From: a virus
Virus record (IMG/VR): IMGVR_UViG_3300032309_001546
Location: 64,001 to 128,000 of that record
Length of the DNA: 64,000 nucleotides
Direction: 5' to 3' (one strand)
Part shown: one piece after another, positions 5,856 to 53,981 of the stretch
How the letters are laid out: each line of letters starts with the position of its first letter
Position numbering within the stretch: the first letter of the stretch is position 1
Notes under the pieces: generated by a model
Told to the model about the DNA's origin: nothing
The model's database searches: none
What the model saw: only the letters and a program-made list of their open reading frames with translations
Position numbers and translations under genes: made by a program

Positions 5856-5897
5856 AAGTCTGCTGCGTATGCCGATTTCGCCACCTGAGCAAAGGCA

Positions 5898-29800: not shown

Positions 29801-30364
29801 CTATCTCTCTATCTCGCATTAGGACACTAGCAGGGTCACTACTAGTTACGAGTCTATCAGCCCAAGAGGAGGCTTATCCAAATCGTAATGCGGAATTGGC
29901 AACCGCACCTGTCTACTTACACTAGAACCCGACAGGCCCTTTCTAGTGCTTTGATACCCGACAACTACTGGTGTGGTATCTACTGGAGTCTTGAGCCCAG
30001 TCTACTCTCCTCCTGGGTACGCCTAACTAGGCTCACCATGCTCCCCCGAGGTTGGGAACATGGGTACGGGGCGCGTAACTGCCCCTTCCCAGTTTTTATG
30101 TTAAGCGGACTGGGAACCGCCCCTGTCTGATACATACCAGAAGCCGACAGGCCTCATCTGGTACGAGTAGCGGTAGCTACTATCCGCCATGTGAGGCGAG
30201 CGCAGCGAGCCTAATAGAATCCTATTACCTGGACTCTGTCTGGCCATACTAGTAATGCAACTATTTTTGGCCGACCCTAGTAAAGGGGTTTCCCCCCGAG
30301 TAGGGGGGTTTCGTGGGGGTAAAAAAGTTCCCCTCCCACACTGTAAGTGTGAGAGGGGGGTTCT

Positions 30365-30844: not shown

Positions 30845-30888
30845 TGACGTTCTCCGTGGTAAGTGAGCCAAAGGCGGCTCATCATGAA

Positions 30889-31087
30889 AGGCGAGCGCAG
30901 CGATGCCTGTGCTGCGGCGTTGTTGCTGTTGCCTGCGTAGCGCAGCGGAGCAGGCTGTGTTGCTACCTGCGGAGCGCAGCGAAGCAGGGTAACCACGTAG
31001 CGCAGCGGAGTGGTGTGTCCTGTGGTTCTGATGAGCGTAGCGCAGCGGAGTGAATCAGAGGCGAGGACTCGGCGCAGCCCAGCGGAG
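30889..31087 (+). promoter_or_regulatory. Cluster of about five GC-GCA-GC triloop DNA hairpins
   Basis: AGGC-GA-GCGCAGC-GAT-GCCT; CCTGC-GTA-GCGCAGC-GGA-GCAGG; CCTGC-GGA-GCGCAGC-GAA-GCAGG; ACCAC-GTA-GCGCAGC-GGA-GTGGT; one more near 31036. Confidence 0.65.
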
Positions 31088-31169
31088 TATCTGGACTTTT
31101 TTACGACTATTTGTACTATTTTTGTATTATAGAAAGAATAGCCCATTGCTGGGCTACTCAATCTAATGG

Positions 31170-34100
31170 CTACTTCTTACCCGTGATACGGTTAAGACGT
31201 GCCGCGACACCGGCCTTCTTCTCCGAGGGAGCAGGGGCGGGCTTCTCTTCAGCCTCAACCTCGGCGTCGAAGTCATTGGGATCGATGAAGATAATCTTCA
31301 GGCCCGACTCTTCAGCGTAATCAACCGCATTCTTTGTACCGCCAGTGCTGCCATCCCAGACAGCAATGACGATATCGGCGCAGTCAATCATCTGCATGTT
31401 ACGGCGCTGCATGCAGAACTTGTCTTCGCCATAGGTCTTCTCGCTGACCTGGACGACTTCGCTGGCAACTTCCAGCATGTTCCAGTAGCGCTGCTTGGCT
31501 TCGCGGGGCCACATAGCCTCCTGCTCTACACAGGGGATCATGACCGTGAACGGGATACCCATCTCGTGCGCAATCTCTGCCGCATCCTGGTCAACGCCAA
31601 GGGCACCGCCAGTGATTAGCCAGAGCTTCTCACCGTGCTTGGCAAGACCACGCTCAAGCTGAGCCGCAATCTGTTCACGTACCCAGATGCGCTTCTCCGC
31701 ATTGGGATTGTATCCGCCGATCTTGTCGGGACGGTGACCAGTGAAGGCCACAAAGAAGTACTCCGTCTCTTCGGCTTCAACTTCCTCAGTTGCAGCCGCG
31801 ATCTTAACCTTGAAGGGATCGACATACAGCATACCGGGCTTGTAGTCTGCATACCCTTCGGGGCGGTTGTTGTGGGTAGACTTCGCGCCCGCAGGAGGAT
31901 TCGGCAGAGTGCTGACATCCCGCTTCTGGATGTAAAGCATTACTCCATCAAGTCGGGCTTCGTCATACCAGGCTTGAGGGCCCTTCTGGCGGATCTGCCA
32001 CTCGCTAAGGTCAACGCTATCAGCATCAAACTCGATGTAGGGGCCATGGTCCCCGTACACAATGCGTGCGTACTCGGTTGCAATAATGCTTCCATTCGGG
32101 GTTTGGATTTCCCCATCAAAGCCCTGACCATCCTCACGGAGTCCGAGTTTGGCTTCGACTTCACGCTTGTCGGCTTCGCGATTAGGCAAACCAAGCGTTG
32201 TGGACTTGAAGTCTTCGGACTCTTCGTCTTCGGCAACAGGGCACACAGCGGCCATCGAGGGGCCATTGTCTTCGTATCTGGCTTCGCAGGTCGGGCAGAG
32301 ACCGGCCACGAAATCCCCCTCGACTTTGCAGTCCTCACAGGCATTTGTGCAAATGCGGCAGCCAGCGCCCTCGCACACTTCGCACACAGATGTGGGGATG
32401 GACTCTTCTGCTTCTTCCTCAGTCTTGTTGGCAAGGCGCAGCAGGACGTCAGCGTGGCAGGCTTCGGGTGCACAATGGCAAATCAACGACTTGCCAGTAA
32501 GTTCTCCGAGGCTATCCATGAGATTAACCTGTGCCTTCACCCAAGCCTCGTACTTGGCAATGACTTCCTCACGGTTGCCATCGCGGCCAAGGACGAAGGG
32601 ATTACCCCACTTGCTGGGACGGCCAACGTATACCGCACCGGAAGGAATATCCTTATCTGCCCGGTTGTAGACGGCAGGTGCAGCGTTAGCAACGACCGGA
32701 GCGCTAGCCTCAGTGGCTTCAGACTCTTCGTCTTCGCTGTCCACCCAGCAATCGGTGTAATCGAAGCGGTCGCTGCTCTTGGCCTTCTCGTCTTCCTCAA
32801 AGACCTCGGACTCTTCCTCTTCGTCACCGTACTGGCTAGGGTCGAAGTCCGGGTTCTCTTCACCGAAGTCCGGCTCTTCTGCATCTTCCGGCTCGGGCAT
32901 CTCGTCAGCGTCCTCCGAGATGTCATACTCGTGCGAGGGCTCATCCTCGTAACCCTCCTCGTACGTATCCTCTTCAGGCTCATCACCAGAGAAGACATCG
33001 TTGAGATCCTCTTCGCCTCCACCCTGAGGACCGTTGTCGTCGCCAAGGAAGGTGAGGATCAGGAAGCTGTTCAAGCCCTGAGGCGCGAACCTGGTGCCAA
33101 CAGCCACGGTGCGACCCATGACAGTTTTACCATTCTCGTCCTTGGTCTTGATGTCGGGGTTCCACTCGGTAACCCACTCACGCTCCACAAGCTCTGCCTT
33201 CACCGCAGTACCCGGGAAGATCTCGATCAAGCGACGCAGGAAACCGAATGAGTCAGCAGCTTCAAGCGTGCTCATAGCGTTGAAGCTGTCGAGCTCAGCC
33301 TGCGCTTCTGCGATCTTTGTCTCGCTGGGCTTCTTGGCCTTCTTCAAGTCAGCCAGTGCGTGACGAAGCTCCTCACCCTTGTTCTTCCGACGAAGCTCGA
33401 TCTGACGACCGATTTCGCTGACAGTCGCAAGCTGACCCTCAAAGCCATTGGCCTCTCGACCATCGCTGATGCGCACGCCGGGCAGGCTGAGAAGACCATC
33501 GATCCCCCAGCCAAGCTTCTCGCCGTCACCGCCGAAGCCACCGCAGTTCTTCTCACCACGGATGTAGGCGAGGAGAGCTTCTGCGTCCTGGCGTACCGTC
33601 GGGGTACCACCCTTGCCCAAGTAGAGAGCAAGCTGACGGGCTTCACCGAGGCTGTTATCGTCGAGGCCGTTGATTGCGGCAATGCCATTGCTGGACATCC
33701 AGTCCGTGAGGTATTCCCAGGGACCGCCGACGAAGAACGCAGTGGTAGCGATACCGCCATTCGCCTTAAGGTTGCCATTGGCATCCTCGGTGATGGTGAT
33801 CTCAAGAGCCTGTGGCTTCGCATCCTTGCCGACCTTCTTGGCCTTCTCAGCAGGCTGCAGGTAACGATTGGCAAAGGCAAGCCAGGCCATCTTCACAGCA
33901 GCGTCGCGGTCTTCAGCCTCAAAGTTCTTGAGGATGTACGACTCGATCTGGGAGTCTACGAGTTCAATCGCCGCTCTGATGGGCATCGCCGAGTAGGCCA
34001 GCCAGAGTGCCTTCTTGGCACGCGAGATGTTGCCGCCAGCCAGCATTGCACTGACGACCCTGTAACGACGGTTGCTCTCGTGGCCTGCAGGAGCCATGAT

Positions 34101-37100
34101 CTTGTGGATCAGTTCCTGGTTGGTCCAAGCCTGGAGGTTCTTGAAGCTACCGGGGCTCCAGTTCCAGTAGAGCCAGGCCTCGGTCTCTTCGCCAGGGGCC
34201 TCGTCTTCCGTGCGACCAAGCCAAGCAGTGAGCGTCTGGTGCAGGACGTTCTGGCGACCAGCTTCCCACTGAGCATTGGCGAGGGATTCGACCTCATCGA
34301 TGCACCACTGGCGGTAGTCAGCCCAGAGGGTGTAGACCTTCGAGCTAAGCTCACCAGCGACGAGGTGGGTAACGATCTCGCCTTCTTCGTTGCGGACGGG
34401 AGCGGTCACCTTCGTGCCATTCTCGAACAGGGGCTGCATGTCTTCACCGAGGACAGCAACACGCTTGGCCGGGTCGACGAACAAGCTCTTCGCACCAAGG
34501 CTGAGCTTCCGCAGAACGGCAGGCACGAATGCCCAACCTTCACGGCCCTTGCCTTCGGTGACAAGGTCAAGCCAGACCTGGTAGACCTGCACCATCCGGT
34601 AGGATGCCCAGGCTTCAGCGTAACCCGTCATCTTGACCGCTGCGTCAACGATGTCGGACAACGTCACGCCGAAGAGGAGCGTCTCGGAGATCTCCTCACG
34701 AAGCTCCTCGAGGAAGGTAGGCAGCTTCACCCAGCCAACAGCCAGGGACATGCCGTAGATCTTCGCGTTAGCGACGATACCAATCGCCTTCTGGAAGACG
34801 TTCTCCTCCATGTTCATCACCGACTCGTACAAGCTCTCGTGGCTCATACCAGCAGTGGTGGCTTCGACCGGCGCTTCGGGCTCCGTAACGGCGGTAATGA
34901 CGAAGTTCTCCGTCTTCACCTTGAAAGCCTGACCGAGGATCGTGGCCGCGTTGAGGCGGGTCCACAGGCTCTTGTTCTCCGGGATACCGGCGACCATCTT
35001 AGCACGGAGCGCGTTCTTCTGTGCACGCTTCTCGGCGTTGAGCTTCGCCTTATCAGCAAGAGCGGTACGCCAGGCCAGACCCTTCACGATGAGCATGGCA
35101 AGCTTACCACGCGCAGTGGGGCAGCGGTCATCATAGTCCATGCCTTCGTTTGCCTGGAGCAGGAGGACTACCGTGTCTCCGCTCGCCGTGGTGAACATGA
35201 TCACCATACGGCCGCTTACGCCGATGATGAAGATATTCAGGCTTTCCGGCAGCTCACGGATCTCCGCAACCGTGCCCGACGTTTCGCCGGTGGGGTTACG
35301 GAAGAAGATTGCCAGGTTGGGCGCGCAGTTGTTCTTCGCCCAGCGAGCAAAGTTGGTGCAGTAGACAATAAGACGACCATCAGCCGTCTTCGTCTCCAGC
35401 TCCATGGTCTGCTTCGCCTTCGTAGCAACCTCCTCAGAGTGCTGCCCTTCAGCAATCCAAGCCGCATGCAGCATCGGCCAGAGGACCGGGATGGGGTAGG
35501 TTGCCCACAAGTCGCTTCCCTCCTCGGTAACAGGAGCGATCTTCATCGAGCCAGGCTCAATGTTCTTGCTCAAGGTGCCAACCAGCTGCTGTGCCAGCAT
35601 GCGGAAGGGGAGAACAGGGATTCGCATCGCGCCGAGGAGCTTCGCAAGAACGCTGTTGCGGTTGTCCTCGACCTTGGCCTCTTCGTCGCCAGCAACGAAG
35701 TCGTCAGCATCCTCGTCCAGACCCTTCAGGAAGTCGGGGAGACGCTTCTTGGCGTAGGCGATGTAGCCAGCAATGAGCTGGTAGAACTCCTTCGAGTTGA
35801 CCTCAGCTCCGAGAAGCATAAGGATCGACTGAAGCGACATAACCGCCTTCTCCTTCGTGAGCGCCGCAGTGCCGGGGATCCAGCAAAGGGCATAGTCGTT
35901 CTGGGTAGCGGACCACTCGGTCTTCACCTCACTGGCAATGATGCAGACGCCTTCAGGGAAGTACCGAGCCGGAAGCGGGATGCACATACCCTTGATCAGA
36001 CCTTCGCTGGTCAAGATACGAGCCACCATCGGAGCGGTCAGACCCATGGCCTTCGCCACGTCGGCACGGACAAGCACAAGGCCGTCGAAGAACTTGACCA
36101 GTGCAGCGGCAATCTTGCCCAGGTCCAGGACCTTACCCGGCAGGACAACGCGGGCAGTAACCCGCGAGATCCAGTACGAGTCAGCATACTTAGCAATGCG
36201 GCCCAGGGTCTTACCCTTGAACCGCAGAGCCGCCATGCTGACCTTCTTGGCTTCGGGCGTGCAGTAGAGGGTCATACCCTTCTGCAGAACCCGAATGGTG
36301 ACAAGGCCAAGCTTCTTAGCGTTGGCCACGGCATCGGTATCGTCGTCAGCGACAACGAGACCTTCGAGGAGTCCAGGGCTATCGTCAGCCGCAGGACTAG
36401 TAGCACACGCCTCCTCAAGGAAGGCTGCGAACGTGCCGGGAGTGCATACCCGGACTTTCTTGTTACCCATCTTGTTCTCCTTAGGGGTGGGTGCCCCGGT
36501 GTGCTTCGTCGAGGCCAGGATGATTCCCGGCTTAACGGAAGCTTTGGTGTCGTTGTTGGTGCTGGTGGCTTCACCGTTTAGGTCATTGTTGACCTCGGCA
36601 AAGATATCCTCGCAAGCCGCCATAAGACGAGCTGCGATGGCTGAGATGGCGTCGCTGGGGATGCCGGCATAGAGGCGGTCATAGCCACCTCTCATGGTCA
36701 ACTCGGTACCGTCCGCCTGGCAGACATTGCAGAATTGGCCCTTTGAGCCAAATCCTGCAACACCGCAACCGACGCAGGTCTCGGGCCCGCAGTCGGCTTC
36801 GCTGGGCTTAGCCTTAACCATGGCCTCGAGCTTCGTCGCAAGGGCATTGCCCACTACAACGAACAGGATACCGACGATGCCGACGACAAACAGAAAGCCG
36901 GGTCCTGCAAGGAACTCGGCCGGGCTCTTAGCCCAAGCGGCTTCGACCGCCTGGCTGAACGTGGGTGCTGCAGCGGCGAGTACGGCGATAAGCGGGGAGC
37001 TGGCCTTCACCGCATTGCGGCGTTGGCGGCTCAGTTCCCGCTTTCTGGTGCGCTTCTGGGCATCCTCAGTCGCCGTCATGGCGAAGAAGACGCTTGCGGT

Positions 37101-37967
37101 ATCCTGTGCGGACTTGCCCGTGTTACCACAGACAGCGGCTTCGATGCGCTTGGCAAGGGTGGTCTTGATGACCACAATCTTAGCGCCGATAGCTACGGGC
37201 TTCACAGGAGTAACCTGCTTGGCCTTTGCCGCCGCGATGTGCGCCGAGAAGGTCATGGCCTTCGTGACGCGGGGGAATTTCGCGACGGGCTTCGCAGCAG
37301 CCTTAGCGACGGGCTTCGCAACGGGCTTGGAGGCAGCCTTGGGAGCAGGCTTTACAGCGGGCTCAGCGACGGCTTCCACTGCCACTTCCGTGACAGCAGC
37401 AACCTCGATGGCAGGGGCAGGGGCAGGCTTCACAGGAGCCTTAGCGACAGGCTTGGCAATTGCCTTCGGAGCGGGCTTGGCGACAGCCTTGGGGATATGG
37501 ACCCCCTTCGACCGCAGCCAGCGGTCAAGGCGGATAGTGGTCCAGCAGTTACGCCGGGCCAAACGGGCTGCATGGCGGGTAAGCGCCTGCAGCCTGAGCG
37601 ACGCCGCCGACTGGGCAGCAACAGTCCGCCGAAGCGGAAGGACGATGGCGTATACGTTCGCCAGAAAACGGGCCACGAAGGCCAAGATGACACGGACCAT
37701 GGGATGGTCCTTACCCTCCGCGAGGAGGATTGGGGTGGTCGGCTTCACCGAATTGGCAAAGCGGACCACGAGGGAAGCGGGGATGCGGGGAGCGATGCGG
37801 GTTGCAGCCTCCGTGACCAGCACGAAGCTGGTGACGAAGAAGCTGACTAGGGCAGCGGCCTGCTGCGAAAGGGTGGGGGCCAGCTGGGCCTCCACGGTCA
37901 GCGCCGTTGCGAAAACGGCGAACACCACAGCCACGATGGCGGTGATGGCGAGTTGGATCCGAGACAT
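31170..37967 (-). CDS. 2265-aa polyvalent protein: N-terminal TM/AKP-rich region, putative single-chain two-barrel RNA polymerase core, acidic tract, DUF4326, Zn-finger, unknown domain, C-terminal YspA-type SLOG
   Basis: Ordered motifs FFDG, R.....IKG, FFRNP, GMDYDD, IG..AN, SDIVDAAVK.TG; DUF4326 VYVGRPSKWGNPF...L.CHCAP..CHADVL; SLOG AFTGHRP...GGALGVD...MQRRN..MID.....IAVWDG..GGT.N.V.YA. GGAGG RBS. Confidence 0.75.
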   Translation of the reverse strand: MSRIQLAITAIVAVVFAVFATALTVEAQLAPTLSQQAAALVSFFVTSFVLVTEAATRIAPRIPASLVVRFANSVKPTTPILLAEGKDHPMVRVILAFVARFLANVYAIVLPLRRTVAAQSAASLRLQALTRHAARLARRNCWTTIRLDRWLRSKGVHIPKAVAKPAPKAIAKPVAKAPVKPAPAPAIEVAAVTEVAVEAVAEPAVKPAPKAASKPVAKPVAKAAAKPVAKFPRVTKAMTFSAHIAAAKAKQVTPVKPVAIGAKIVVIKTTLAKRIEAAVCGNTGKSAQDTASVFFAMTATEDAQKRTRKRELSRQRRNAVKASSPLIAVLAAAAPTFSQAVEAAWAKSPAEFLAGPGFLFVVGIVGILFVVVGNALATKLEAMVKAKPSEADCGPETCVGCGVAGFGSKGQFCNVCQADGTELTMRGGYDRLYAGIPSDAISAIAARLMAACEDIFAEVNNDLNGEATSTNNDTKASVKPGIILASTKHTGAPTPKENKMGNKKVRVCTPGTFAAFLEEACATSPAADDSPGLLEGLVVADDDTDAVANAKKLGLVTIRVLQKGMTLYCTPEAKKVSMAALRFKGKTLGRIAKYADSYWISRVTARVVLPGKVLDLGKIAAALVKFFDGLVLVRADVAKAMGLTAPMVARILTSEGLIKGMCIPLPARYFPEGVCIIASEVKTEWSATQNDYALCWIPGTAALTKEKAVMSLQSILMLLGAEVNSKEFYQLIAGYIAYAKKRLPDFLKGLDEDADDFVAGDEEAKVEDNRNSVLAKLLGAMRIPVLPFRMLAQQLVGTLSKNIEPGSMKIAPVTEEGSDLWATYPIPVLWPMLHAAWIAEGQHSEEVATKAKQTMELETKTADGRLIVYCTNFARWAKNNCAPNLAIFFRNPTGETSGTVAEIRELPESLNIFIIGVSGRMVIMFTTASGDTVVLLLQANEGMDYDDRCPTARGKLAMLIVKGLAWRTALADKAKLNAEKRAQKNALRAKMVAGIPENKSLWTRLNAATILGQAFKVKTENFVITAVTEPEAPVEATTAGMSHESLYESVMNMEENVFQKAIGIVANAKIYGMSLAVGWVKLPTFLEELREEISETLLFGVTLSDIVDAAVKMTGYAEAWASYRMVQVYQVWLDLVTEGKGREGWAFVPAVLRKLSLGAKSLFVDPAKRVAVLGEDMQPLFENGTKVTAPVRNEEGEIVTHLVAGELSSKVYTLWADYRQWCIDEVESLANAQWEAGRQNVLHQTLTAWLGRTEDEAPGEETEAWLYWNWSPGSFKNLQAWTNQELIHKIMAPAGHESNRRYRVVSAMLAGGNISRAKKALWLAYSAMPIRAAIELVDSQIESYILKNFEAEDRDAAVKMAWLAFANRYLQPAEKAKKVGKDAKPQALEITITEDANGNLKANGGIATTAFFVGGPWEYLTDWMSSNGIAAINGLDDNSLGEARQLALYLGKGGTPTVRQDAEALLAYIRGEKNCGGFGGDGEKLGWGIDGLLSLPGVRISDGREANGFEGQLATVSEIGRQIELRRKNKGEELRHALADLKKAKKPSETKIAEAQAELDSFNAMSTLEAADSFGFLRRLIEIFPGTAVKAELVEREWVTEWNPDIKTKDENGKTVMGRTVAVGTRFAPQGLNSFLILTFLGDDNGPQGGGEEDLNDVFSGDEPEEDTYEEGYEDEPSHEYDISEDADEMPEPEDAEEPDFGEENPDFDPSQYGDEEEESEVFEEDEKAKSSDRFDYTDCWVDSEDEESEATEASAPVVANAAPAVYNRADKDIPSGAVYVGRPSKWGNPFVLGRDGNREEVIAKYEAWVKAQVNLMDSLGELTGKSLICHCAPEACHADVLLRLANKTEEEAEESIPTSVCEVCEGAGCRICTNACEDCKVEGDFVAGLCPTCEARYEDNGPSMAAVCPVAEDEESEDFKSTTLGLPNREADKREVEAKLGLREDGQGFDGEIQTPNGSIIATEYARIVYGDHGPYIEFDADSVDLSEWQIRQKGPQAWYDEARLDGVMLYIQKRDVSTLPNPPAGAKSTHNNRPEGYADYKPGMLYVDPFKVKIAAATEEVEAEETEYFFVAFTGHRPDKIGGYNPNAEKRIWVREQIAAQLERGLAKHGEKLWLITGGALGVDQDAAEIAHEMGIPFTVMIPCVEQEAMWPREAKQRYWNMLEVASEVVQVSEKTYGEDKFCMQRRNMQMIDCADIVIAVWDGSTGGTKNAVDYAEESGLKIIFIDPNDFDAEVEAEEKPAPAPSEKKAGVAARLNRITGKK

Positions 37968-38259
37968 GAGTTACCTCCTAGTCAACGGGGTCCAGCGCGA
38001 TCTATAGGGAAGCATTCCCTATGACCGACATACCAGTGTCTTGTAACACACTGGAAGATTTCTGGTCCTTTATGGGAAGGACCCTGTTTAAAACCCTGGC
38101 TTTCTGTTCGCTCCGGCATTGACCCATACTACCTTCTTGGAAGATACTGGGGTGCCATTCGAACTATCCGGCCCATTGCGACCACCCCTTAGCAGAGAGC
38201 TGGTCCACATTTTAGCCCATAGTAGTGCAACTATTTAAGTATCGTACAAAAAATACCCT

Positions 38260-39810
38260 TCCTGGGAAGTTCATTAAAACACTTACACACCCAGTGTGCA
38301 GTTTGCTCAACGCATAAATTACTAGTCTGATACTTGTTAACAGACCAGCGATCTATACGCCGTGAACCCATCCAGGGACGCCAGGAGCCTTGCCTCCGTC
38401 CTGGGATTAGCTTCGCACATTAGCATGACATAAAGCGTTTTATCCCTTAAAGGATTCTTGCGCTGCAGTCTTCTTCTCCCACTACATTACTAGACTAGAG
38501 GTTCAATGGGCCTCTATGCTAGGGATCTTGCCGCCGAATTGCGCGAGAAGATATAACCATCCTACTCCTTTTGAGAGCAAGAGCATCTAGTAATTACCTG
38601 ACCTATGTGTAGTTATCTATGGGCAAACAGATCCTAACAAGAACTGAACCTCTGGCAGCGGTTTCTTGTTAGTTTAGGCGTACAAGCGCCTATCCCCTCT
38701 TATACGTGCATGCCTGGCAGTCATCACATACTAATTGGGGGCTGATCTTTTGCTTGCATAGTGATTTGGGTTCTTCTTACCAGTAAGAGCGGCGCTACTC
38801 GCTAAAACCAGTATATAGGGTGTTTATAACCCAATCCAAATGCAAACGGCTCCTCGGTATTTCAACCGAATCACAGCCTTCTACAAGTGTCAAGTGTGGG
38901 AGTCAAAGACACAGCATCCTTCTTGGGACGCTTTGTGTCATACTTCTGTTACGAAGCTAAAGCAACGAATCTCACCATCTCACAGACCAGGTCCTGTCTA
39001 CACAGTAATCAACTGTATAGCGGTTATCTGATCTGTCCTCGTTGATTCCTCGTTATCTCTGCAGAAGGGCTACCGCTTAAAGTAGAAATCCTCCTGGATA
39101 ACTTGGTCCACCGGCCACACCTGCTAGAGTGCGCCTACTCTGTCTCACGACAGTTGGGGAATTATGCAGCATTTACTCTGTAAAAACAGGGAAAGGGTTC
39201 AGCACTTGCCGCCTTGCTTAAGGGCGGGAGTTTGCCTATCACGAGATCTGCTTGTGTCGGTTTTGCGGGGTGTTTTTGTTGAGGTTCCCCTTTTGCCTCC
39301 TTTTTTAAAGTCCGTACTCTCTTTCGAGGACAACAGACTTAGTGCGCGTAATCAACGCTTGGGAAAGTTAAAACCCATATAGTCATCTTTGGTGAGGGAT
39401 GACGCCCTACTGCCGACAGGCAGACCCCTAAAATCTCTATTAGCCATACTTGACATCCACACCACCGACATATTAGGAGCTTTCGCCCCCGGAAGAACTG
39501 TTCCTCCTTGGTGTTTCAGTCTGTGTTGCAGGCCGTACGAGATCTTAGGTTGACAGTTTTTCTGCTACCGACTTTTAGGGATTGCTCCCTCCGCCGGATT
39601 TATGCAGGAACACAGTTTTGGCTGTTAGCCTAGCTGCTTATACTGTCCTCGTGTCCTCTCCGACCATCCACCTTTGGGCATGGCCAGATACTGCACAAGT
39701 CAACGAACCGGTAAGATTCGTTGCTTATTTTTTATGGGGCGTTAACTACGTGCAAAACCTTGCCAACGCTGATCCCCACATATGGTCACTCCATATGTTT
39801 AAGACTCCAC
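38260..39810 (-). ncRNA. Candidate large structured non-coding RNA (about 1.55 kb)
   Basis: No minus-strand ORF of 60 aa or more; bounded by two copies of the cassette element; dense in inverted repeats. Confidence 0.5.
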
Positions 39811-39999
39811 TGTTTAGCCCATAGTATTCTTTTGACGACTATTTTTGGACTATTTGAGTAAAGTAAAACAATTTAACCCATAACTATACAACTCTTTGAG
39901 TATTAGAGAAAAAATAGCCCTTAACGCGGGCTAGACGTGCTTTTCTGTTCCCAAGAAGCAACTCTCGGATGGGCACCACCCCATCAGGCACCTCCCGTT

Positions 40000-40287
40000 T
40001 CAGGGAGACGGGCACTCCCCATCTTTGAGGTGACGCTTGCTGCGCACACAGCCGTATTCGGCCATGCGAGCCTCCACCTTGCGAAGGTGAAGAGTGTCAC
40101 CCCAAACCGAGATGTAGGGTTTATTAGCCAAAGCTCCGAGAAGCCGGCCAATTCCCCACATCACGTCGGAAGCCTCGTCCTTGAGTTCTTCAAGGTTTTT
40201 AACCTCGAAAAGCTCTACTGCCTCTTCGGCAATATGGACGATAGCAACCCGGATGGGAAGCACCTCAAGACATTTACAGAAATGCAT
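40000..40287 (-). CDS. Small MazG-like NTP pyrophosphatase-fold protein
   Basis: HIAEEAVELFE...ELKDEASDV (EExxE...ExxD); AAGGAG RBS. Confidence 0.55.
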   Translation of the reverse strand: MHFCKCLEVLPIRVAIVHIAEEAVELFEVKNLEELKDEASDVMWGIGRLLGALANKPYISVWGDTLHLRKVEARMAEYGCVRSKRHLKDGECPSP

Positions 40288-40445
40288 CTGTAGACTCCTT
40301 GTGGTAATGCTGTATGCAGTACAGCGCTGTGAGTAAAAGGATCTTTACTTCACTGTTTAGCCCAGACTAGTGTACTATTTAAGTATGTTTCAAAGAATGA
40401 CCCATCTTGCGATGGGTCACTCAGTGATGTCTCTCTTCCCTTTCT

Positions 40446-40808
40446 CTACTTCCGCCAGGCCCCAGTACGAGCCTCGACCACAGTCTTGAGGTTGCAGTAG
40501 AGGTTGCCCACCGCATAGCGGCAGGGGGTAGCGGTGGTCAGCCAGTCCTCGTTGGACTGAAGGTCGGGACCCTTGGCCATGGCCAGAGAGTAGCGAGCTT
40601 CCTCTGACAACTGGCATTTGGCCAGAGTCTTGCGGTGCACCGAGACCTTGACGGTGTCGATCTCGCCGCTGAAAGAAGCCGCCACGTGGTTCCAGCCGAT
40701 GGCCTTGAGGGCCTCGACGATCTCCGTCTTGTAGACCGAGACGGGAAGGGTGGGGGGGAAGGAGATAAGGAGCGCGCTATCCGTCACATCATTGATCTTC
40801 TTGCACAT
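40446..40808 (-). CDS. Hypothetical cassette gene
   Basis: Start MCKK after GGAGG; GC3-rich codons; has its own repeat element. Confidence 0.75.
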   Translation of the reverse strand: MCKKINDVTDSALLISFPPTLPVSVYKTEIVEALKAIGWNHVAASFSGEIDTVKVSVHRKTLAKCQLSEEARYSLAMAKGPDLQSNEDWLTTATPCRYAVGNLYCNLKTVVEARTGAWRK

Positions 40809-40953
40809 GGTTTCCTCCATTGGAAAGGCGGTGTGGCGCACCGTGGCAGGGGGTAGAATCTGCCATCTTCTAGTTCATAGTAGGACTATTTAAGTACTAT
40901 AGATTACTTACCCCACCTTGCAGTGGGGCTTTCATCTACCTCAACCTCAGCTC

Positions 40954-41100
40954 TTAGTCCTGCATGCAGCTCCACGAGATGCCGATCCAGGACAGGATCA
41001 GAAGACCCGCGCAGACCGGCTCCATCACGCCAGAGCCAAAGCTCCAGCCGAGGGTGCAGGTTGCGAGGAGGAAGCTGGCGGTAGCGATTGCATTCTTCAT
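40954..41100 (-). CDS. 48-aa two-helix membrane protein (not in the ORF track)
   Basis: MKNAIATASFLLATCTLGWSFGSGVMEPVCAGLLILSWIGISWSCMQD; GGAG RBS; fills one cassette. Confidence 0.7.
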   Translation of the reverse strand: MKNAIATASFLLATCTLGWSFGSGVMEPVCAGLLILSWIGISWSCMQD

Positions 41101-41244
41101 GACATTCTCCAGTTTGGCATCATTCTTTACGAAGTGTAAAGCTATGTATGCCCACAGCCTAGCCCATACTACTATTTGTGTATCCTAGAAAAGATAGCCC
41201 ACCTCCTCAGGGTGAGCCATCCTATCTATCCTCAATCGCTCTAG

Positions 41245-41424
41245 TTACTCGCTGCGGTCAGCAAGCCAACCACCACGACGCACCGACTGGCGGCACGCGA
41301 GGCAGTCACAGCCCCAAAGGGCGTCGGCGATGTCGCTTTCCCAGGCAAACTCCTCTTCCTCCGTGAGGAGGACGATGAGCTCGATCTGAAACAGGGCGAG
41401 GATCTTGACAAGAATCTTGTCCAT
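41245..41424 (-). CDS. Hypothetical cassette gene
   Basis: Start MDKILV after AAGGAG. Confidence 0.7.
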   Translation of the reverse strand: MDKILVKILALFQIELIVLLTEEEEFAWESDIADALWGCDCLACRQSVRRGGWLADRSE

Positions 41425-41549
41425 GGCTAACTCCTTTACGAGTGGGGACGACATTATCCCAAAGCTGGCCAAAGATTAACTCATAGCAGTACAACTATTT
41501 ATGTATTGTCGATTACTTACCCCTTACGGGGCTTTCGTCGGGTTGCTCT

Positions 41550-41810
41550 CTACTTGTCGCCGCATACCGGGAGTGGCGTGCCGTTAGGCACGTCACTCAT
41601 CGGGTGTGGGTGAGTCGCAGAGAAGTCTACAATCCACCACCGCCAACGGGTTTCCCCGCTAAGGCTGCAGTCGATCTCAACAAGCTCGTCCTCAACGCAG
41701 TACCCAGCAACCTTCGGCTCGATCGTACCGGTGGTCGGCACGGGGAGCGTGTTGTTGCTGGAGCAAGCGGTGAGGAGCGAGGCAAGCAACGCGATCTTCA
41801 ACTTATCCAT
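41550..41810 (-). CDS. Putative lipoprotein
   Basis: MDKLKIALLASLLTAC: signal peptide with lipobox LTAC; AAGGAG RBS. Confidence 0.75.
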   Translation of the reverse strand: MDKLKIALLASLLTACSSNNTLPVPTTGTIEPKVAGYCVEDELVEIDCSLSGETRWRWWIVDFSATHPHPMSDVPNGTPLPVCGDK

Positions 41811-41934
41811 GAGATCTCCTTTCGGTTTGGGTGACATTACCCATCTCACCGTTTAGCCCATAGGACTGTTTAAGTATTGTTCAAAGAATAGCCCGCCTAA
41901 GCGAGCCACTCGATGATGCAGTCTACCTCATCCT

Positions 41935-42135
41935 CTAGTCATCGAATCCATACTGCCAAAACAGCGAGGACACGATGGCCATGCCGATCAGCACGATCGT
42001 TGCGAACGTGCCGAGAGCGTTGAACAGGTTCTCGGGGCCGGCGACCCGAAGCCAGTTGTCCATGAGGCAACCAGCGAAGAACATATTCAAGAGGTGAACG
42101 AAGACGCGGACAATGTTCCAGAGAACCTTAACCAT
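41935..42135 (-). CDS. Small two-TM membrane protein
   Basis: Start MVKVLW after AAGGAG; two hydrophobic segments. Confidence 0.75.
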   Translation of the reverse strand: MVKVLWNIVRVFVHLLNMFFAGCLMDNWLRVAGPENLFNALGTFATIVLIGMAIVSSLFWQYGFDD

Positions 42136-42276
42136 GACAGACTCCTTTCTAGTAATATTCCCCAACGAAATGCGGGGCTATATCACCACACTTTAACCCA
42201 CACTACTTGAACTATTTAAGTACAGTAGAAAAGATAGCCCACCTTGCGGTGAGCCAGAGCTTCCCTGATTGTGGAC

Positions 42277-42567
42277 CTAAGGCTTGTTAGCCAAGTGGTC
42301 CGTGATGGCCTTGCTGTTGCCCTGCGAAGGGCAGCACCCAAACTCGCGGAACCAGTAGTCCCGCTTGTTATGCCACTTCTTCTTGGCGGCCTTCTTCCGA
42401 GCCTCGCTTGCCTTTTTACGGGCAGCACGGACAGAGGCGCGAATCTTGCGAGCCTGCTGACGAGTTTCCTCGTCAACAAGCCCGCAGAACAGGATCATGA
42501 AACCCGTTCCTGCACCCCCGAGAAGAATGACGGCGAAAATCAATCGCAACCACATCATCGAGTCCAT
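42277..42567 (-). CDS. Membrane-anchored basic protein
   Basis: N-terminal TM then K/R/A-rich helix; AAGGAGG RBS. Confidence 0.75.
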   Translation of the reverse strand: MDSMMWLRLIFAVILLGGAGTGFMILFCGLVDEETRQQARKIRASVRAARKKASEARKKAAKKKWHNKRDYWFREFGCCPSQGNSKAITDHLANKP

Positions 42568-42725
42568 AACAAACCTCCTTTACGTTAGGTTAGCGCTCTG
42601 CGAATCTGCAGTTTACGCCATGTCATGTCACCTTCTAAGTCATACTATTTAAGTATCTTAGAAAAAATGACCCGTCCAAAGACGGGCCATGTTCCCTTGC
42701 CCACCCTAAGGTGAGCCGTTGCTCT

Positions 42726-42968
42726 TTACCTGAACGGAACGTACAGGTAGAGAGCGCGACGATTGAACCCAGTCGCCTTGTGGATGCTCGCGAAGAGCCG
42801 GTATTCCGGGGGCGAGCTGGTCATGGCGCTGTAAACGCCACGTGCGACCTGGTAGCCGCATCTGCTCCCGCGGTTCTCGAAGGCAGTCCAGGCCGCAGCC
42901 TGAGACAGCCAGTCGAGAAGACGATCCTCCTCTGTCTTGGGGGTCGTCTCGTTGGTGTTGTTGCTCAT
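42726..42968 (-). CDS. Hypothetical cassette gene
   Basis: Start MSNNTN after AAGGAGG. Confidence 0.75.
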   Translation of the reverse strand: MSNNTNETTPKTEEDRLLDWLSQAAAWTAFENRGSRCGYQVARGVYSAMTSSPPEYRLFASIHKATGFNRRALYLYVPFR

Positions 42969-43123
42969 TTTATCCTCCTTGAAGGTTGCAGTGTGGCGCA
43001 CTGGGCAGGGGGTAGAATCTGCCATATATTAACTCATAGCAGAACTCTGTAAGTATTAGAGAAGAAATACCCCACCCTAGCATAAGCCAAAGTGGGGCAA
43101 TCCTCTAGTCCATCAACCAGTTA

Positions 43124-43351
43124 TTACCAGTTGAAATCCTGCTCAACATGATGGAGCACCTCAGTGCCAAACACGCTGAACCGAATCAACAGTCGAAGGC
43201 GCACAGGGGTGCCACCCTCGATGCCGTGGTGCTGCAGCCCAAAGGCCACAAGATTCTTCCACCCACGGCCGGGGTGGGGAGTGGTGTCAATGACAACACC
43301 GTTCACCATGGTCTCAACCTCAAGCAACTGCATCTCGGTCGTGATCATCAT
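43124..43351 (-). CDS. Hypothetical cassette gene
   Basis: Start MMITTE after GGAGG. Confidence 0.75.
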   Translation of the reverse strand: MMITTEMQLLEVETMVNGVVIDTTPHPGRGWKNLVAFGLQHHGIEGGTPVRLRLLIRFSVFGTEVLHHVEQDFNW

Positions 43352-43551
43352 CTTATCCTCCATTGAAAAGGAAGGGAATTTCACCCCACCCGAGAACACT
43401 CTCAGGATTTGAAGTTCATAGAAAATTTGAACCTCCACACTTTAGCTCATACTATTTAAGTATATAAGAAAAGATGGCCCATCCTCTCGGACAGGCCACC
43501 TAAGCTAATACAAGCTGACTCAAGGGCTCAAAGGATCAAGCTCTCAATCAA

Positions 43552-43752
43552 TCAATGCCAGGGATTACGCCCAGCAGGATTGAAGAAGCCGCGACGGGCG
43601 CACTCACGCTTGATCTCCTCGCGCCTCTCTTCCATATCCCGGCAGTAGCTGTTGCCCCAGCCGTACTGGCTGTGGAAACGGACATCATCCGCGAGAAGGT
43701 TGACGGAAATGAGGGAATTGCAGTTCCGAATCTCAATCTTCAACTTATCCAT
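43552..43752 (-). CDS. Hypothetical cassette gene
   Basis: Start MDKLKIE after GGAGG. Confidence 0.75.
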   Translation of the reverse strand: MDKLKIEIRNCNSLISVNLLADDVRFHSQYGWGNSYCRDMEERREEIKRECARRGFFNPAGRNPWH

Positions 43753-43892
43753 GGCAAACCTCCAGGTTGAAATCACTCCTATGAAATATAGGTAGTGTGC
43801 CAAATGTTAACTCATAGTAGTACTCTGTTAGTATGTTAGAAAAGATAGCCCCCGAAGGGGCCAGAGCTTGACCAGAGCGTGAGCTCTAGTTA

Positions 43893-44156
43893 CTACTTGT
43901 ACATCGCCTTAATGAAGGCGTTCTCGATGGCGCGAACCAGCTGCCAGCTCGCGTTCATCTCCTTGTCCAGGTCCCAGGAGGAACCGTCCTTGGCCTCGAT
44001 GTCCTTGAGGCGGGAGATCTCGACCTTGATCGTGCTAAGCGTGTTCCGAAGCTCCTCATGGGAACCCTCTTTGATACCGTTGTTGTCAACAGAATCATTG
44101 AAGGTTGCCCAGCAGGTCTCCGCAATCTCGCTCATCTGGATCATGCTCTTGTTCAT
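43893..44156 (-). CDS. Hypothetical helical cassette gene
   Basis: Start MNKSM after GGAGG. Confidence 0.75.
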   Translation of the reverse strand: MNKSMIQMSEIAETCWATFNDSVDNNGIKEGSHEELRNTLSTIKVEISRLKDIEAKDGSSWDLDKEMNASWQLVRAIENAFIKAMYK

Positions 44157-44313
44157 CTTATCCTCCGTTGGTTGGAAGGGAATTTCACCCTGCCCGAGAC
44201 AATTCCCAGGACTTGAAGCTAGTAAGATTACCAACTCCCACATGTTAACCCATAATACTATTTGAGTATCTTAGAAAAGATAGCTCGCCATTACAGCGAG
44301 CCAGAGCTAATCT

Positions 44314-44670
44314 CTAACGCCAGTTGTGAACAATGCTGAACCAGGGTTGAACCAGGTCAGCCGGAAGCTCCTTGTGGAGCTTATCCGTGATTTCCCTCCA
44401 CTCCAGCATGTGCTGGTAGCGGATAGAGGACGGGATCTCACGGTTGTAGCCGTGGAACCCCTCAAACCAAGCGACGAACACCTGGATATCCTCTGCAGTA
44501 GCCTTGCGAGCCTGATCCCTAATCTCCTCAAGGGAGACCTGGGCAGCAGACTTGACGGCAGGAGCAACGTTGACAGTCTTGACGCTCTCCTTCCCGAAGG
44601 GGAAGAAAAGAGTAACAAGGCCGACGACGAAGCAAAGAGCCATCAAAGCGACAAGAATAACGTTCAACAT
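44314..44670 (-). CDS. Membrane-anchored hypothetical protein
   Basis: N-terminal TM; AGGAGG RBS. Confidence 0.75.
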   Translation of the reverse strand: MLNVILVALMALCFVVGLVTLFFPFGKESVKTVNVAPAVKSAAQVSLEEIRDQARKATAEDIQVFVAWFEGFHGYNREIPSSIRYQHMLEWREITDKLHKELPADLVQPWFSIVHNWR

Positions 44671-44789
44671 GGCAAACCTCCTGGTTGAAATCGTTCCTAT
44701 GAATTATAGGTAACGTGCCACAAGTTAAGTCATACTATTTGTGTATGTAAGAAAGAATGACCCACCTTGCGATGGGTCACTCAATCAGG

Positions 44790-44981
44790 CTACAGAGAGA
44801 AGTATCTCTGTGACCACACGACGGACAGGCTGTTCCACGTACCCCAGGTCAGGGTGCTATGGCGGGTGTGCTTGTCCATGCTGCGGTCGATGACATCAAG
44901 CTCCTTGCGGGAGACTGCCGAAGCAATCTCTTGAAGGAACTTCTTTGCCAGGTACTCATTAGACGCGACATTGATTCTCAT
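44790..44981 (-). CDS. Hypothetical cassette gene
   Basis: 63 aa; GGAG RBS. Confidence 0.7.
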   Translation of the reverse strand: MRINVASNEYLAKKFLQEIASAVSRKELDVIDRSMDKHTRHSTLTWGTWNSLSVVWSQRYFSL

Positions 44982-45084
44982 TGTCTATCTCCATGAAGGG
45001 TGAAATTACCCACATACTATCCCATACTATTTAAGTATAGGAGAAAAAATGACCCATCTCTCGATAGGTCATTGATCCTAGTAC

Positions 45085-45573
45085 CTACTTGATGTAGGTA
45101 TTGATTGACATCAGGCTGCGCATAGCCTGGTGTTGATACTCCGTTTTGGCAACCCACTCAAAGGTCGCCTCAATGGAGCGTTCGAGCCGATTAAGCGGCC
45201 CGCTGAGGAACTGAATCTCACCCTGCGACATAGGCGGGGTAAGGTCCGACTCAACAAACTTAGCAAAGACATCCCACTGGTTGTTAAGCCAGAGAGTGAA
45301 AGATGCGTGAGCCTGTTGAGCCCGGACCAAGCGTTCCATTGCTTGATCCGTCGTGATGTTCTGAGCACAGGCGTTGATGCCAGTCCTCCAGACGCAAGTC
45401 TTGAGGCCCACCGCCTGGATCTCAAGAACATCACGCTCCACTGCAGCGACCTGCTCGTGGAAGTACCGAGAGATCATCCCGGCGGTGGGTGCCTCATTGG
45501 TTGAATAGGTATAAATACCCTCAACCGATGAAGCGTTGACGAGGAGAGCGGACACGATAACGTTGTTCGACAT
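45085..45573 (-). CDS. Hypothetical protein, first gene of the leftward arm
   Basis: Start MSNNV after GGAG. Confidence 0.75.
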   Translation of the reverse strand: MSNNVIVSALLVNASSVEGIYTYSTNEAPTAGMISRYFHEQVAAVERDVLEIQAVGLKTCVWRTGINACAQNITTDQAMERLVRAQQAHASFTLWLNNQWDVFAKFVESDLTPPMSQGEIQFLSGPLNRLERSIEATFEWVAKTEYQHQAMRSLMSINTYIK

Positions 45574-45639
45574 GATTGACTCCAAGACAAAGGGCGGAAT
45601 TGCCCACACACTAGCCCATAACGGTACAGGCGGTCGATC

Positions 45640-46035
45640 CAAAGGGGGTGGGCTAAAACGAATAGGGGGTACACATCTTTACCAGGCGGGCTATATAGAG
45701 TACCCACTCTTTTCCGAAAAAAAATATATTAATTATATATATCCAGATATATAGCCTGTCTTTAGATTGCTCTTTTCCAAAAAAAATATATATAAATATA
45801 TAAGCCTATATAGAGTTCTTTAGGCAAGTCTACGTCCCCTTTTCAGACCTATACCCCCTTTTCCCCTAGCTTTCCCACTAAGTGTTTTCTCAAAATATAT
45901 ATAGAGGTTTTCCCCTATACTATATATAGGACTTTTCCTTATACATATAAGGTCTTTCCTTAAATAATATTTAAGGTTTTTTCCTTTTCCCTATATAGCG
46001 TCCCTTATGGTATCAAGTTAATAAAGTTTAAACTT
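45640..46035. other. Divergence point; AT-rich low-complexity region, candidate genome terminus or packaging site
   Basis: Strand switch and abrupt GC drop; two GGGGGT runs (45643, 45665), duplicated CTCTTTTCC.AAAAAAAATATAT (about 45708, 45770), many TATA/CCCC runs; adjacent to the TerS-like gene. Confidence 0.55.
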
Positions 46036-46038
46036 AGT

Positions 46039-53979: not shown

Positions 53980-53981
53980 TT

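What the first reader, a model, noticed from the sequence alone, without database searches (positions are those of the whole stretch)
38211..45070. Array of about 14 single-gene cassettes, each delimited by a conserved terminator-plus-promoter-like element
Seen: in transcription direction nearly every spacer reads GC hairpin, (C)TATCTTTTCT or TCATTCTTT, ATACTTAAATAGT, 0-12 nt, ATGRGYTAA, leader, strong RBS and one small ORF. The ORFs are unrelated and several are membrane proteins or a lipoprotein. The core has no canonical TTGACA/-10 pair. Established: analogous units are the T4-type PeSL promoter-stem-loop cassettes and the SPO1 host-takeover module. Inference: phage-specific or alternative-sigma promoters that also act as recombination points for an exchangeable anti-host or anti-defence gene array.
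Basis: partly seen in the sequence, partly recalled or inferred. Interest (0 to 1): 0.8.

Follow-up and report, generated by a model that had tools for sequence, protein, structure and literature searches.

The report
Phage early-gene cassettes with terminator-promoter joints
An uncultured freshwater phage carries 14 small early genes, one non-coding unit and its own giant RNA polymerase gene, each as a separate transcription unit between a terminator hairpin and a conserved non-bacterial promoter-like motif; related phages have shuffled these units at the shared motifs.

Summary
On the minus strand, 17 units carry a conserved motif. These are 14 small ORFan genes (40000-45573), a tandem pair before a 1.6-kb ORF-less stretch, and the 2265-aa two-barrel RNA polymerase gene.

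The motif has two parts. Element 2 (A.TA.T-ATG-RGY-TAR-nnTGTGG) precedes every unit, including the first. A GC hairpin, a ~12-nt T-rich linker and element 1 (ATACnnAMAnAGT) follow every unit, including the polymerase gene. Both elements occur nowhere else in the 146-kb genome, and always in sense.

The spacer between the elements is 0, 3, 6 or 9 nt in 41 of 44 distinct copies. It is a tract of A-N-T triplets. The "ATG-NNN-stop" reading is coincidental, because the stop is lost in distant relatives.

Four close relatives differ in cassette content and order, and homology blocks break at the elements. Five more distant lineages (polymerase 28-36% identical) keep the composite motif; one lacks it.

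No sigma-70-like promoter, integrase or second phage polymerase was found.

Best reading: monocistronic early units with a phage-specific promoter, analogous to T4 PeSLs and the P23-45 pre-early region. Which polymerase reads the motif is unresolved. Anti-defence roles are untested.

The parts
45603..45628 (-). Element 2 alone (ATGGGCTAG-tgTGTGG) before first cassette A; no hairpin and no recognisable element 1
   Evidence: same layout in relatives L009-L012, L017, L023, L025
45085..45573 (-). Cassette A, 162 aa, no family, unique to this genome among the relatives compared
45009..45078 (-). Composite junction A/B: hairpin, T-run, element 1 (45026-45038), spacer 0, element 2
44790..44981 (-). 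Cassette B, 63 aa
44717..44786 (-). Composite junction B/C: element 1 44734-44746, spacer 0
44314..44670 (-). Cassette C, 118 aa, N-terminal hydrophobic helix
44237..44309 (-). Composite junction C/D: element 1 44257-44269, spacer 3
43893..44156 (-). Cassette D, 87 aa
43799..43874 (-). Composite junction D/E: element 1 43822-43834 (3 mismatches), spacer 6
43552..43752 (-). Cassette E, 66 aa
43434..43503 (-). Composite junction E/F: element 1 43451-43463, spacer 0
43124..43351 (-). Cassette F, 75 aa
43021..43100 (-). Composite junction F/G: element 1 43044-43056, spacer 6
42726..42968 (-). Cassette G, 80 aa (92.5% identical to the copy in L010)
42627..42696 (-). Composite junction G/H: element 1 42644-42656, spacer 0
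42277..42567 (-). Cassette H, 96 aa, N-terminal hydrophobic helix, basic tail
42185..42263 (-). Composite junction H/I: element 1 42211-42223, spacer 9 (the orthologous leader in L012 has spacer 0)
41935..42135 (-). Cassette I, 66 aa, hydrophobic segment; unique to this genome
41845..41917 (-). Composite junction I/J: element 1 41865-41877, spacer 3
41550..41810 (-). Cassette J, 86 aa, lipoprotein-type signal (lipobox); unique to this genome
41468..41546 (-). Composite junction J/K: element 1 41494-41506, spacer 9; linker is AAGTAATCGACA, not T-rich
41245..41424 (-). Cassette K, 59 aa
41151..41223 (-). Composite junction K/L: element 1 41171-41183, spacer 3
40954..41100 (-). Cassette L, 48 aa, hydrophobic
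40862..40937 (-). Composite junction L/M: element 1 40885-40897, spacer 6; linker not T-rich
40446..40808 (-). Cassette M, 120 aa
40349..40426 (-). Composite junction M/N: element 1 40374-40386, spacer 8 (the only lineage that is not a multiple of 3), CTG in place of ATG
40000..40287 (-). Cassette N, 95 aa, MazG-like NTP pyrophosphohydrolase lead; present in all four close relatives (94-96% identical)
39806..39943 (-). Hairpin plus two tandem element 1/element 2 copies (element 1 at 39891-39903 and 39849-39861; spacers 9 and 26); relative L010 has only one
38243..39805 (-). ORF-less unit, about 94% identical to relatives, no codon periodicity of substitutions: conserved non-coding transcript or DNA
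38204..38282 (-). Weak hairpin, element 1 38230-38242, spacer 9, element 2; followed by a conserved 253-nt leader of the giant gene
31170..37967 (-). Giant 2265-aa gene: N-terminal hydrophobic segments, two-barrel RNA polymerase core (GMDYDD loop), DUF4326, YpsA/SLOG
31115..31160 (-). Strong hairpin, T-rich linker and element 1 (ATACAAAAATAGT) after the giant gene, with no element 2; conserved in all close relatives

Best explanation
The array is the first temporal class of transcription units of this phage. Each unit is monocistronic. It starts at element 2 (about 25 nt: T..A.TA.T-ATG-GGY-TAR-nn-TGTGG), which I read as a phage-specific, non-sigma-70 promoter and initiation region. A 45-100-nt leader with a strong Shine-Dalgarno sequence follows. 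The unit ends at a GC hairpin with a T-rich tract, an intrinsic-type terminator, followed at fixed register by element 1 (ATACnnAMAnAGT). Element 1 is either a terminator-associated signal or an upstream accessory part of the next promoter.

The class comprises 14 ORFan cassettes, one conserved non-coding unit and the phage's two-barrel RNA polymerase gene. Because about 70 nt of nearly identical sequence flanks every unit, homologous recombination between junctions deletes, inserts, duplicates and reorders cassettes.

Shown here: the anatomy, the exclusivity of the motif, its conservation across relatives, and the shuffling with breakpoints at the junctions. Inferred: promoter and terminator activity, early timing, and the polymerase.

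My split for the polymerase, given that the motif is a promoter: about 55% the phage's own two-barrel enzyme delivered with the virion, about 45% host RNA polymerase with an unknown specificity factor. In the second case the phage enzyme would read the GC-hairpin motifs downstream of its gene.
For: Element 2 precedes every unit in sense orientation, 44-99 nt before the start codon (253 nt for the giant gene). It precedes the first unit without a hairpin or element 1, in this genome and in relatives.

Hairpin plus element 1 follows every unit, and follows the giant gene without element 2. The hairpin-to-element-1 register is fixed, while the element 1 to element 2 distance varies from 0 to 30 nt across the family.

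Both elements are confined to the array in the 146-kb genome. No real copy was found in 185,579 bacterial and archaeal genomes; the 2 hits were single and chance-like.

Hairpins are stable with unrelated stems. Terminator-like sites are enriched, and there is no sigma-70-like promoter on the coding strand.

The composite motif is kept in five lineages whose polymerase is only 28-36% identical (L016, L017, L023, L024, L025): 38 copies, all in sense.

Cassette sets differ between close relatives. WIN has ABCDEFGHIJKLMN, L012 has PBDCQEFRKLMN, and L010 has YBVUWZ..GWRLH.K..N. Blastn blocks end at the elements, and K and L are in reversed order between WIN and L010.

Precedent: Thermus phage P23-45 has 14 AT-rich promoters read by a virion two-barrel RNAP at the genome end, including one before a second RNAP gene, plus a conserved 26-nt terminator motif (doi 10.1101/2022.12.01.518664). 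PeSL shuffling in T4-like phages is a second precedent.
Against: There are no transcript-end data, so promoter and terminator activity are inferred. The polymerase gene carries the same motif as the cassettes, so the enzyme can read it at time zero only if it is packaged, which is untested. No second phage RNAP was detected. One related lineage (L015) has the polymerase but neither the motif nor a cassette array. Three hairpins lack a T-run and one is weak. The first unit may keep a degenerate remnant of element 1 (GTAC..GTT), so the two-module split is not airtight. The phage also encodes a sigma-70-family factor, which could in principle read the motif.
Confidence: 0.62

Rival explanations
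1. The motif is a promoter read by host RNA polymerase, with the host primary sigma of an unknown host, the phage's own sigma factor, or a virion-delivered specificity factor. The two-barrel polymerase is simply an early product that reads other signals.
For: The polymerase gene sits in the same class as the small early genes, as the T7 RNAP and P23-45 gp64 genes do. A different GC-hairpin motif starts right after the polymerase gene, and a comparable one is repeated 7 times downstream of the polymerase in L015. The roughly 1100-aa polymerases of relatives have no membrane-like extension. The phage has a sigma-70-family gene.
Against: No -35/-10 pair is seen at any of 17 units. The conserved block is about 25-30 nt and is kept across very divergent phages. 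No real copy occurs in bacterial genomes. The motif is absent from the structural block, where a phage late sigma would be expected to act.
Confidence: 0.27
2. The elements act at RNA level. One long early transcript from the AT-rich region is cut at each junction (as RNase III cuts T7 early RNA), leaving 3' hairpins and standard 5' ends.
For: AU-rich single-stranded sequence lies next to a stable hairpin at every junction. Element 2 before the first gene could be an RNA 5' signal downstream of a promoter in the AT-rich zone.
Against: Most hairpins carry T-runs typical of terminators. Element 2 shows no conserved pairing partner and is conserved as plain sequence. Element 1 occurs without element 2 after the last gene. 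Internal copies such as L025:6400 sit just before a gene start inside an upstream ORF.
Confidence: 0.07
3. ATG-NNN-TAA is a translated two-codon mini-ORF (a start-stop or bar-like minigene) that regulates the downstream gene.
For: In the close relatives nearly all copies read NTG-NNN-TAA/TAG.
Against: There is no Shine-Dalgarno sequence before it. The first codon is CTG or GTG in several copies. The 'stop' is TAC or TAT in L010:2524, L016, L017 and L025:6400, while the rest of the motif is kept.
Confidence: 0.02
4. The junctions are integron-like (attC-type) sites for a site-specific recombinase that captures cassettes.
For: The layout is an array of single-gene cassettes, each with an imperfect palindrome plus a conserved core, with variable content between relatives.
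Against: No tyrosine or serine recombinase is found in the 146-kb record, and the search controls ring. Each cassette has its own promoter-like element and strong RBS. The hairpins are short tetraloop stems with T-runs. Junction homology of about 70 nt is enough for homologous exchange.
Confidence: 0.02

Closest known systems
PeSL (promoter-early stem-loop) cassettes of T4-like phages (Arbiol 2010, PMC2839356; Comeau 2014, PMC4122927)
   Same: A composite stem-loop terminator plus early promoter sits before small ORFan genes in plastic regions. Recombination between copies causes indels, replacements and reordering between close relatives.
   Different: PeSL promoters match the E. coli sigma-70 consensus, whereas this motif does not. 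Here the copies form one contiguous array at the head of the leftward block and include the phage polymerase gene and a non-coding unit. The phage is unrelated (TerL <=30% identical to any deposited phage).
Pre-early region of Thermus phage P23-45 (doi 10.1101/2022.12.01.518664)
   Same: A strongly conserved AT-rich promoter motif is repeated about 14 times at one end of a GC-richer region. It precedes small genes and a two-barrel RNAP gene, and a conserved terminator motif accompanies it.
   Different: P23-45 has two paralogous RNAPs, one fused to the tape measure, whereas only one RNAP was detected here. The motif sequence was not compared because the figures are not held. No TSS or ChIP data exist here.
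SPO1 host-takeover module and phiKZ/AR9 early promoter sets
   Same: These are clusters of small early genes, each with its own strong promoter and terminator. In phiKZ and AR9 they are read by a virion two-barrel-type RNAP (from my own knowledge, and titles and abstracts).
   Different: SPO1 uses host sigma-A promoters, and phiKZ and AR9 enzymes are multisubunit. Shuffling at the junctions was not the point of those studies.
T7-type single-subunit RNAP promoters
   Same: Both are long contiguous motifs. The spacer-0 form reads ATAC-N11-GGG and the spacer-9 form reads CACTACTATGGG, recalling TAATACGACTCACTATAGGG (from memory).
   Different: No T7-like RNAP was found, though that search had no positive control. 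The variable 0-9-nt spacing is incompatible with a rigid T7-type promoter.

Membership tests
PeSL (T4-like promoter-early stem-loop) | Promoter identical or close to the sigma-70 -35/-10 consensus | tested here: not met
   No sigma-70-like site on the minus strand in 37900-46100. The conserved positions do not form hexamers at 16-18-nt spacing.
PeSL (T4-like promoter-early stem-loop) | Stable stem-loop joined to the promoter in intergenic position before ORFans | tested here: met
PeSL (T4-like promoter-early stem-loop) | Copies are points of exchange between close relatives | tested here: met
PeSL (T4-like promoter-early stem-loop) | Formation of encapsidated mini-circles | not testable with these tools
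   Needs PCR or sequencing of phage DNA.
Phage-RNAP-specific early promoter class (P23-45, phiKZ, N4 type) | Conserved motif at mapped transcription start sites | not testable with these tools
   No transcript data. Position and orientation fit.
Phage-RNAP-specific early promoter class (P23-45, phiKZ, N4 type) | Motif restricted to one gene class and co-occurring with the polymerase family | tested here: met
   (restriction to the array). (present in 6 of 7 polymerase lineages examined, absent in L015).
Phage-RNAP-specific early promoter class (P23-45, phiKZ, N4 type) | The polymerase is present in the virion | not testable with these tools
   Only indirect: N-terminal hydrophobic segments and an Ala/Pro/Lys-rich region.
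Intrinsic (hairpin plus U-tract) terminator | GC-rich stem directly followed by a T-run | tested here: met
   11 of the minus-strand junctions pass the scan. Three junctions have AAGTAATC linkers instead of a T-run, and one hairpin is weak.
Integron cassette array | Integrase next to the array, and promoterless cassettes with attC | tested here: not met
   No tyrosine or serine recombinase. Every cassette has its own promoter-like element.

The most novel reading that the evidence does not exclude
Element 2 is the first promoter defined for a new family of QDE-1-like single-chain phage RNA polymerases (DxDD loop). The enzyme is ejected with the DNA, anchored by its N-terminal hydrophobic segments, and transcribes a self-contained early module that includes its own gene. 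The A-N-T triplet tract (0/3/6/9 nt) between the two elements sets unit-specific expression levels. The terminator hairpin plus element 1 is a dedicated stop signal for this enzyme.
Probability: 0.3. Interest if true: 0.8.

Novelty: new variant of a known kind. Interest (0 to 1): 0.6.

Why it matters
The finding gives a concrete, testable promoter and terminator candidate for a phage lineage with no cultured member, whose RNA polymerase no annotation tool recognises. With 80-plus aligned copies from seven lineages, templates for in vitro transcription can be designed directly.

It also shows that PeSL-type modular shuffling of early ORFan genes is not tied to sigma-70 promoters or to T4-like phages. 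Any repeated regulatory junction can serve as the exchange point.

The cassette set is a defined pool of about 30 small protein families, many membrane-directed, to screen for host-takeover, superinfection-exclusion or counter-defence activities.

Tried and rejected
- DNA search of the region against deposited phages found no match. The polymerase core against deposited phages also found none.
- Exact composite pattern in IMG/VR found none besides the own record.
- Single-protein locus searches with the giant protein and with cassette A found nothing.
- Pfam and PHROGs on all 14 cassette proteins gave nothing above threshold. The Atlas gave no usable feature hit for cassette A.
- Rfam and tRNA scans found nothing in the array or the ORF-less unit.
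- The search for a second phage RNAP found none. This covered T7-like Pfam (no control rang, so weak evidence), RdRP Pfam (likewise), tblastn with the polymerase core, PDB sequence searches of the 1273-, 921- and 1062-aa proteins, and PHROGs or Pfam on other large ORFs. The 921- and 1062-aa proteins are Ala/Gly/Pro-rich low-complexity proteins.
- Sigma-54 reading of TGGCAC in some leaders was rejected: there is no GC at -12, and only a subset of copies has it.
- Bacteroidetes -7/-33 consensus was rejected by eye.
- A palindromic operator reading of element 1 was rejected: the symmetry is inconsistent across copies.
- The mini-ORF and integron readings were rejected (see rivals).
- The genome-collection scan gave 2 hits, both single and chance-like (L018, L019). 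The metagenome scan gave 3 hits, of which L020 is chance-like and L021 and L022 are real small relatives.
- A literature search for the motif found only unrelated primers.

Full report
CONTEXT. The window is bases 64001-128000 of a 145.9-kb IMG/VR phage record, 84% complete. Plus-strand genes from 46039 onward are packaging and structural: an SNase fusion protein, terminase and portal, with a tail sheath further on. Everything from 45642 down to the start of the window is on the minus strand. An AT-rich, repeat-filled divergent zone lies at 45650-46030. The array is therefore the head of the leftward block. The large terminase is at most 30% identical to any deposited phage, and the polymerase has no match there, so this lineage has no cultured member.

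OBSERVATION. Reading the minus strand, each junction shows the same parts in order:
- a GC hairpin;
- a linker of about 12 nt (tATCTTTTCTnnn, or in three cases tAAGTAATCnAnA);
- element 1, ATACnnAMAnAGT;
- a short spacer;
- element 2, A.TA.T-ATG-RGY-TAR-nn-TGTGG;
- a 44-99-nt leader, a strong Shine-Dalgarno sequence and one small ORF.

There are 14 such genes (45573 down to 40000). A tandem pair of elements follows, before 1.6 kb without an ORF. A last copy precedes the 2265-aa gene. Element 1 with at most one mismatch occurs 10 times in the whole genome. A strict element 2 pattern occurs 14 times. All of these hits are in the array and on the minus strand. Thirteen of 16 hairpins are far more stable than shuffles, and their stem sequences are unrelated. 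The scan finds 21 terminator-like sites against 7.1 expected, and no sigma-70-like promoter on the coding strand.

TWO SEPARABLE MODULES. The first cassette has element 2 but no hairpin and no recognisable element 1. This holds here and in every relative that reaches that point. Conversely, the giant gene is followed by a strong hairpin, the linker and element 1, but no element 2, in all four close relatives. The hairpin-to-element-1 register is fixed, because conserved columns run through the linker. The element 1 to element 2 distance varies from 0-9 nt here to 30 nt in L016 and L017. So element 2 belongs to the 5' start of a unit. The hairpin plus element 1 belongs to the 3' end of the previous unit, or is an optional upstream part of the next promoter. 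A caveat is that the first unit reads GTACCGTT just before element 2, which may be a remnant of element 1.

TRIPLET REGISTER. Over 44 distinct copies from four genomes the spacer is 0 (17 copies), 3 (7), 6 (7), 9 (10) or 8 (3, a single orthologous lineage). Five more copies on L021 give 0, 9, 3, 9 and 3. Counting conservatively, 12 of 13 independent non-zero spacer types are multiples of three, which by my own binomial estimate has probability about 2e-5. The spacers are made of A-N-T-like triplets (ACT ACT, AGT AGT, AAT GCT), and so are the last 6 nt of element 1 (AAT AGT). The positions just before ATG keep the pattern A.TA.T whatever the spacer length. The same leader occurs with spacer 9 in three genomes and spacer 0 in L012. 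The simplest account is slippage or unequal exchange within a short triplet tract, under selection to keep A.TA.T before ATG. Whether tract length tunes expression is unknown.

NOT A MINI-ORF. ATG-NNN-TAA/TAG holds in most close copies. However, the first codon is CTG or GTG in several, no ribosome-binding site precedes it, and the third triplet is TAC or TAT in L010:2524, L016, L017 and L025:6400 while the rest of the motif stays.

RELATIVES AND SHUFFLING. The polymerase core has 7 close homologues at 81-95% identity. Their contigs (L009-L013) carry the same layout. Clustering the cassette proteins gives these orders:
- this phage: A B C D E F G H I J K L M N;
- L012: P B D C Q E F R K L M N;
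- L009: ..D U V W X M N;
- L010: Y B V U W Z aa G W R L H ab K ac ad N.

Only N, the ORF-less unit and the polymerase gene are constant. Cassettes are gained, lost, duplicated (W) and reordered (C/D; H, K, L). Blastn blocks start and stop at the junctions. For example, cassette K maps 5501-5830 to 5791-6121, and cassette L maps 5818-6117 to 4743-5041 in L010. The block ends lie on element 1 and the order is reversed. Upstream of K, three genomes have three unrelated neighbours and hairpins, and homology starts at element 1. Unrelated cassettes also share leader types. Identity of shared cassettes ranges from 30% to 96%, against 82-91% for the polymerase core. That spread argues for exchange among diverged lineages. 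No integrase or resolvase is present, so homologous recombination between the roughly 70-nt junctions is the likely mechanism, as shown for PeSLs.

WIDER FAMILY. An exhaustive search found 19 more polymerase relatives at 23-36% identity. Six contexts were fetched. Five of them (L016, L017, L023, L024, L025) carry the composite motif 3-14 times each, 38 copies in all and all in sense. Most have element 1 fused directly to element 2, in the form yTACTtAAAnAG-TaTGGGyTAAnnnrTGG. The most informative block is T.TGGGyTA...rTGG. In L023 and L024 the polymerase is a plain protein of about 1100 aa sitting as one unit among others. L015 has the polymerase directly after the divergent zone, no motif and no array, but a different GC-hairpin repeat downstream. 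No real copy of the motif was found in one genome each of 185,579 prokaryote species. The motif does not appear in the searchable literature.

WHICH POLYMERASE. It also encodes a sigma-70-family factor far down the leftward block. No second phage RNAP was found. The two large proteins next to the SNase fusion are low-complexity Ala/Gly/Pro proteins.

Points favouring the phage enzyme:
- the motif is long, unlike any sigma-70 pattern, and conserved with the polymerase family across deep divergence;
- the enzyme has four N-terminal hydrophobic segments and an Ala/Pro/Lys-rich region, as ejected proteins often have.

Points favouring host RNA polymerase plus an unknown factor:
- the polymerase gene is itself in this class, which is what T7 and P23-45 gp64 do;
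- a second, hairpin-type motif class begins right after the polymerase gene.

I put this at about 55:45 and regard it as open.

COMPARISON. The system works like PeSLs, but it fails the defining sigma-70 test. The closest analogue in logic is the P23-45 pre-early region, which has a repeated AT-rich promoter for a virion two-barrel RNAP, a polymerase gene within the class, and a conserved terminator motif. In the crAss-like phage phi14:2 the virion RNAP's early transcripts showed no common motif, and abundant early non-coding RNAs were seen. The latter parallels the ORF-less unit here.

CASSETTE FUNCTIONS. None of the 14 proteins matches Pfam or PHROGs. C, H, I, K and L have hydrophobic segments and J has a lipobox. 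N has a consistent lead to MazG-like NTP pyrophosphohydrolases (Pfam E 0.048; Atlas feature scores 0.91-0.95). Host-takeover or counter-defence roles are plausible by position, but nothing here tests them.

VERDICT. The interpretation as terminator-promoter junctions that double as exchange points is well supported by anatomy and comparison. Promoter activity, the polymerase involved and the cassette functions remain to be shown. It is a new variant of a known kind.

Noticed in passing
window 38243-39805 (-): A 1.6-kb unit has no ORF under any single stop-codon reassignment. It is about 94% identical to three relatives, with substitutions spread evenly over the three phases (31/28/36) against 57/55/179 in the neighbouring gene. 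It is more conserved than the coding sequence around it, so it is a candidate large non-coding RNA driven by two tandem motif copies.
   Followed up: partly
window 37968-38220 (-); L017:202-530: The 253-nt leader of the polymerase gene is highly conserved. A homologous leader (GGCCGAATGGTTCGAAAG...GGTCAATGTCGGAGCGAACA) precedes the first gene of the array in the distant relative L017, so it is a conserved 5' RNA element that moves between genes.
   Followed up: partly
window 45630-45700 (-); L017:130-160, L023:~3000, L025:~440: About 30-50 nt upstream of the first element 2, the sequence GTTTTTAGCCCACCCCC is kept across all lineages, including those with about 30% polymerase identity. It contains an inverted near-copy of the element 2 core (TTAGCCCA). 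It may be an entry-end, origin or divergent-promoter signal.
   Followed up: no
window 30880-31110 (-): A cluster of repeats of CTCCGCTGCGCTACG in GC hairpins lies directly after the polymerase gene and before an SSB-like gene. It is a second motif class. L015 has a comparable repeat (GGCCTCCTTCGTCGGCCGAAT, 7 copies) downstream of its polymerase.
   Followed up: partly
window 30000-45000; L015:7000-21000: The early module (cassettes, polymerase and following genes) has 50-63% G+C against 35-48% for the rest of the genome. The same step is seen in the distant relative L015.
   Followed up: partly
window 40820-44735 (-): Unrelated cassette genes share a few leader types with their own hairpins: C and E share TGGCACnnTACCTATAnTTCATAGG, D and F share a second type, and G and M share GGCAGATTCTACCCCCTGCC.
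   Followed up: partly
window 39806-39943 (-): This genome has an extra element 1 / element 2 pair with no gene behind it, compared with L010. It looks like the scar of a deleted cassette.
   Followed up: partly
G000:C1:33379-33588 (-), outside the window: A sigma-70-family factor (region 2, E 6e-21) lies in a 372-aa frame at the far end of the leftward block.
   Followed up: no
window 51214-57170 (+): Two abutting proteins of 921 and 1062 aa are Ala/Gly/Pro-rich low-complexity proteins with glycine-rich hydrophobic stretches. They lie between the SNase fusion and the terminase and are candidate ejected or internal virion proteins.
   Followed up: partly
L017:4244-13655; L025:6445-13637: In two distant relatives the polymerase is fused to a PIF1-type helicase, and the DUF4326 plus YpsA/SLOG part is a separate downstream gene. 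In this phage those domains are fused to the polymerase.
   Followed up: no
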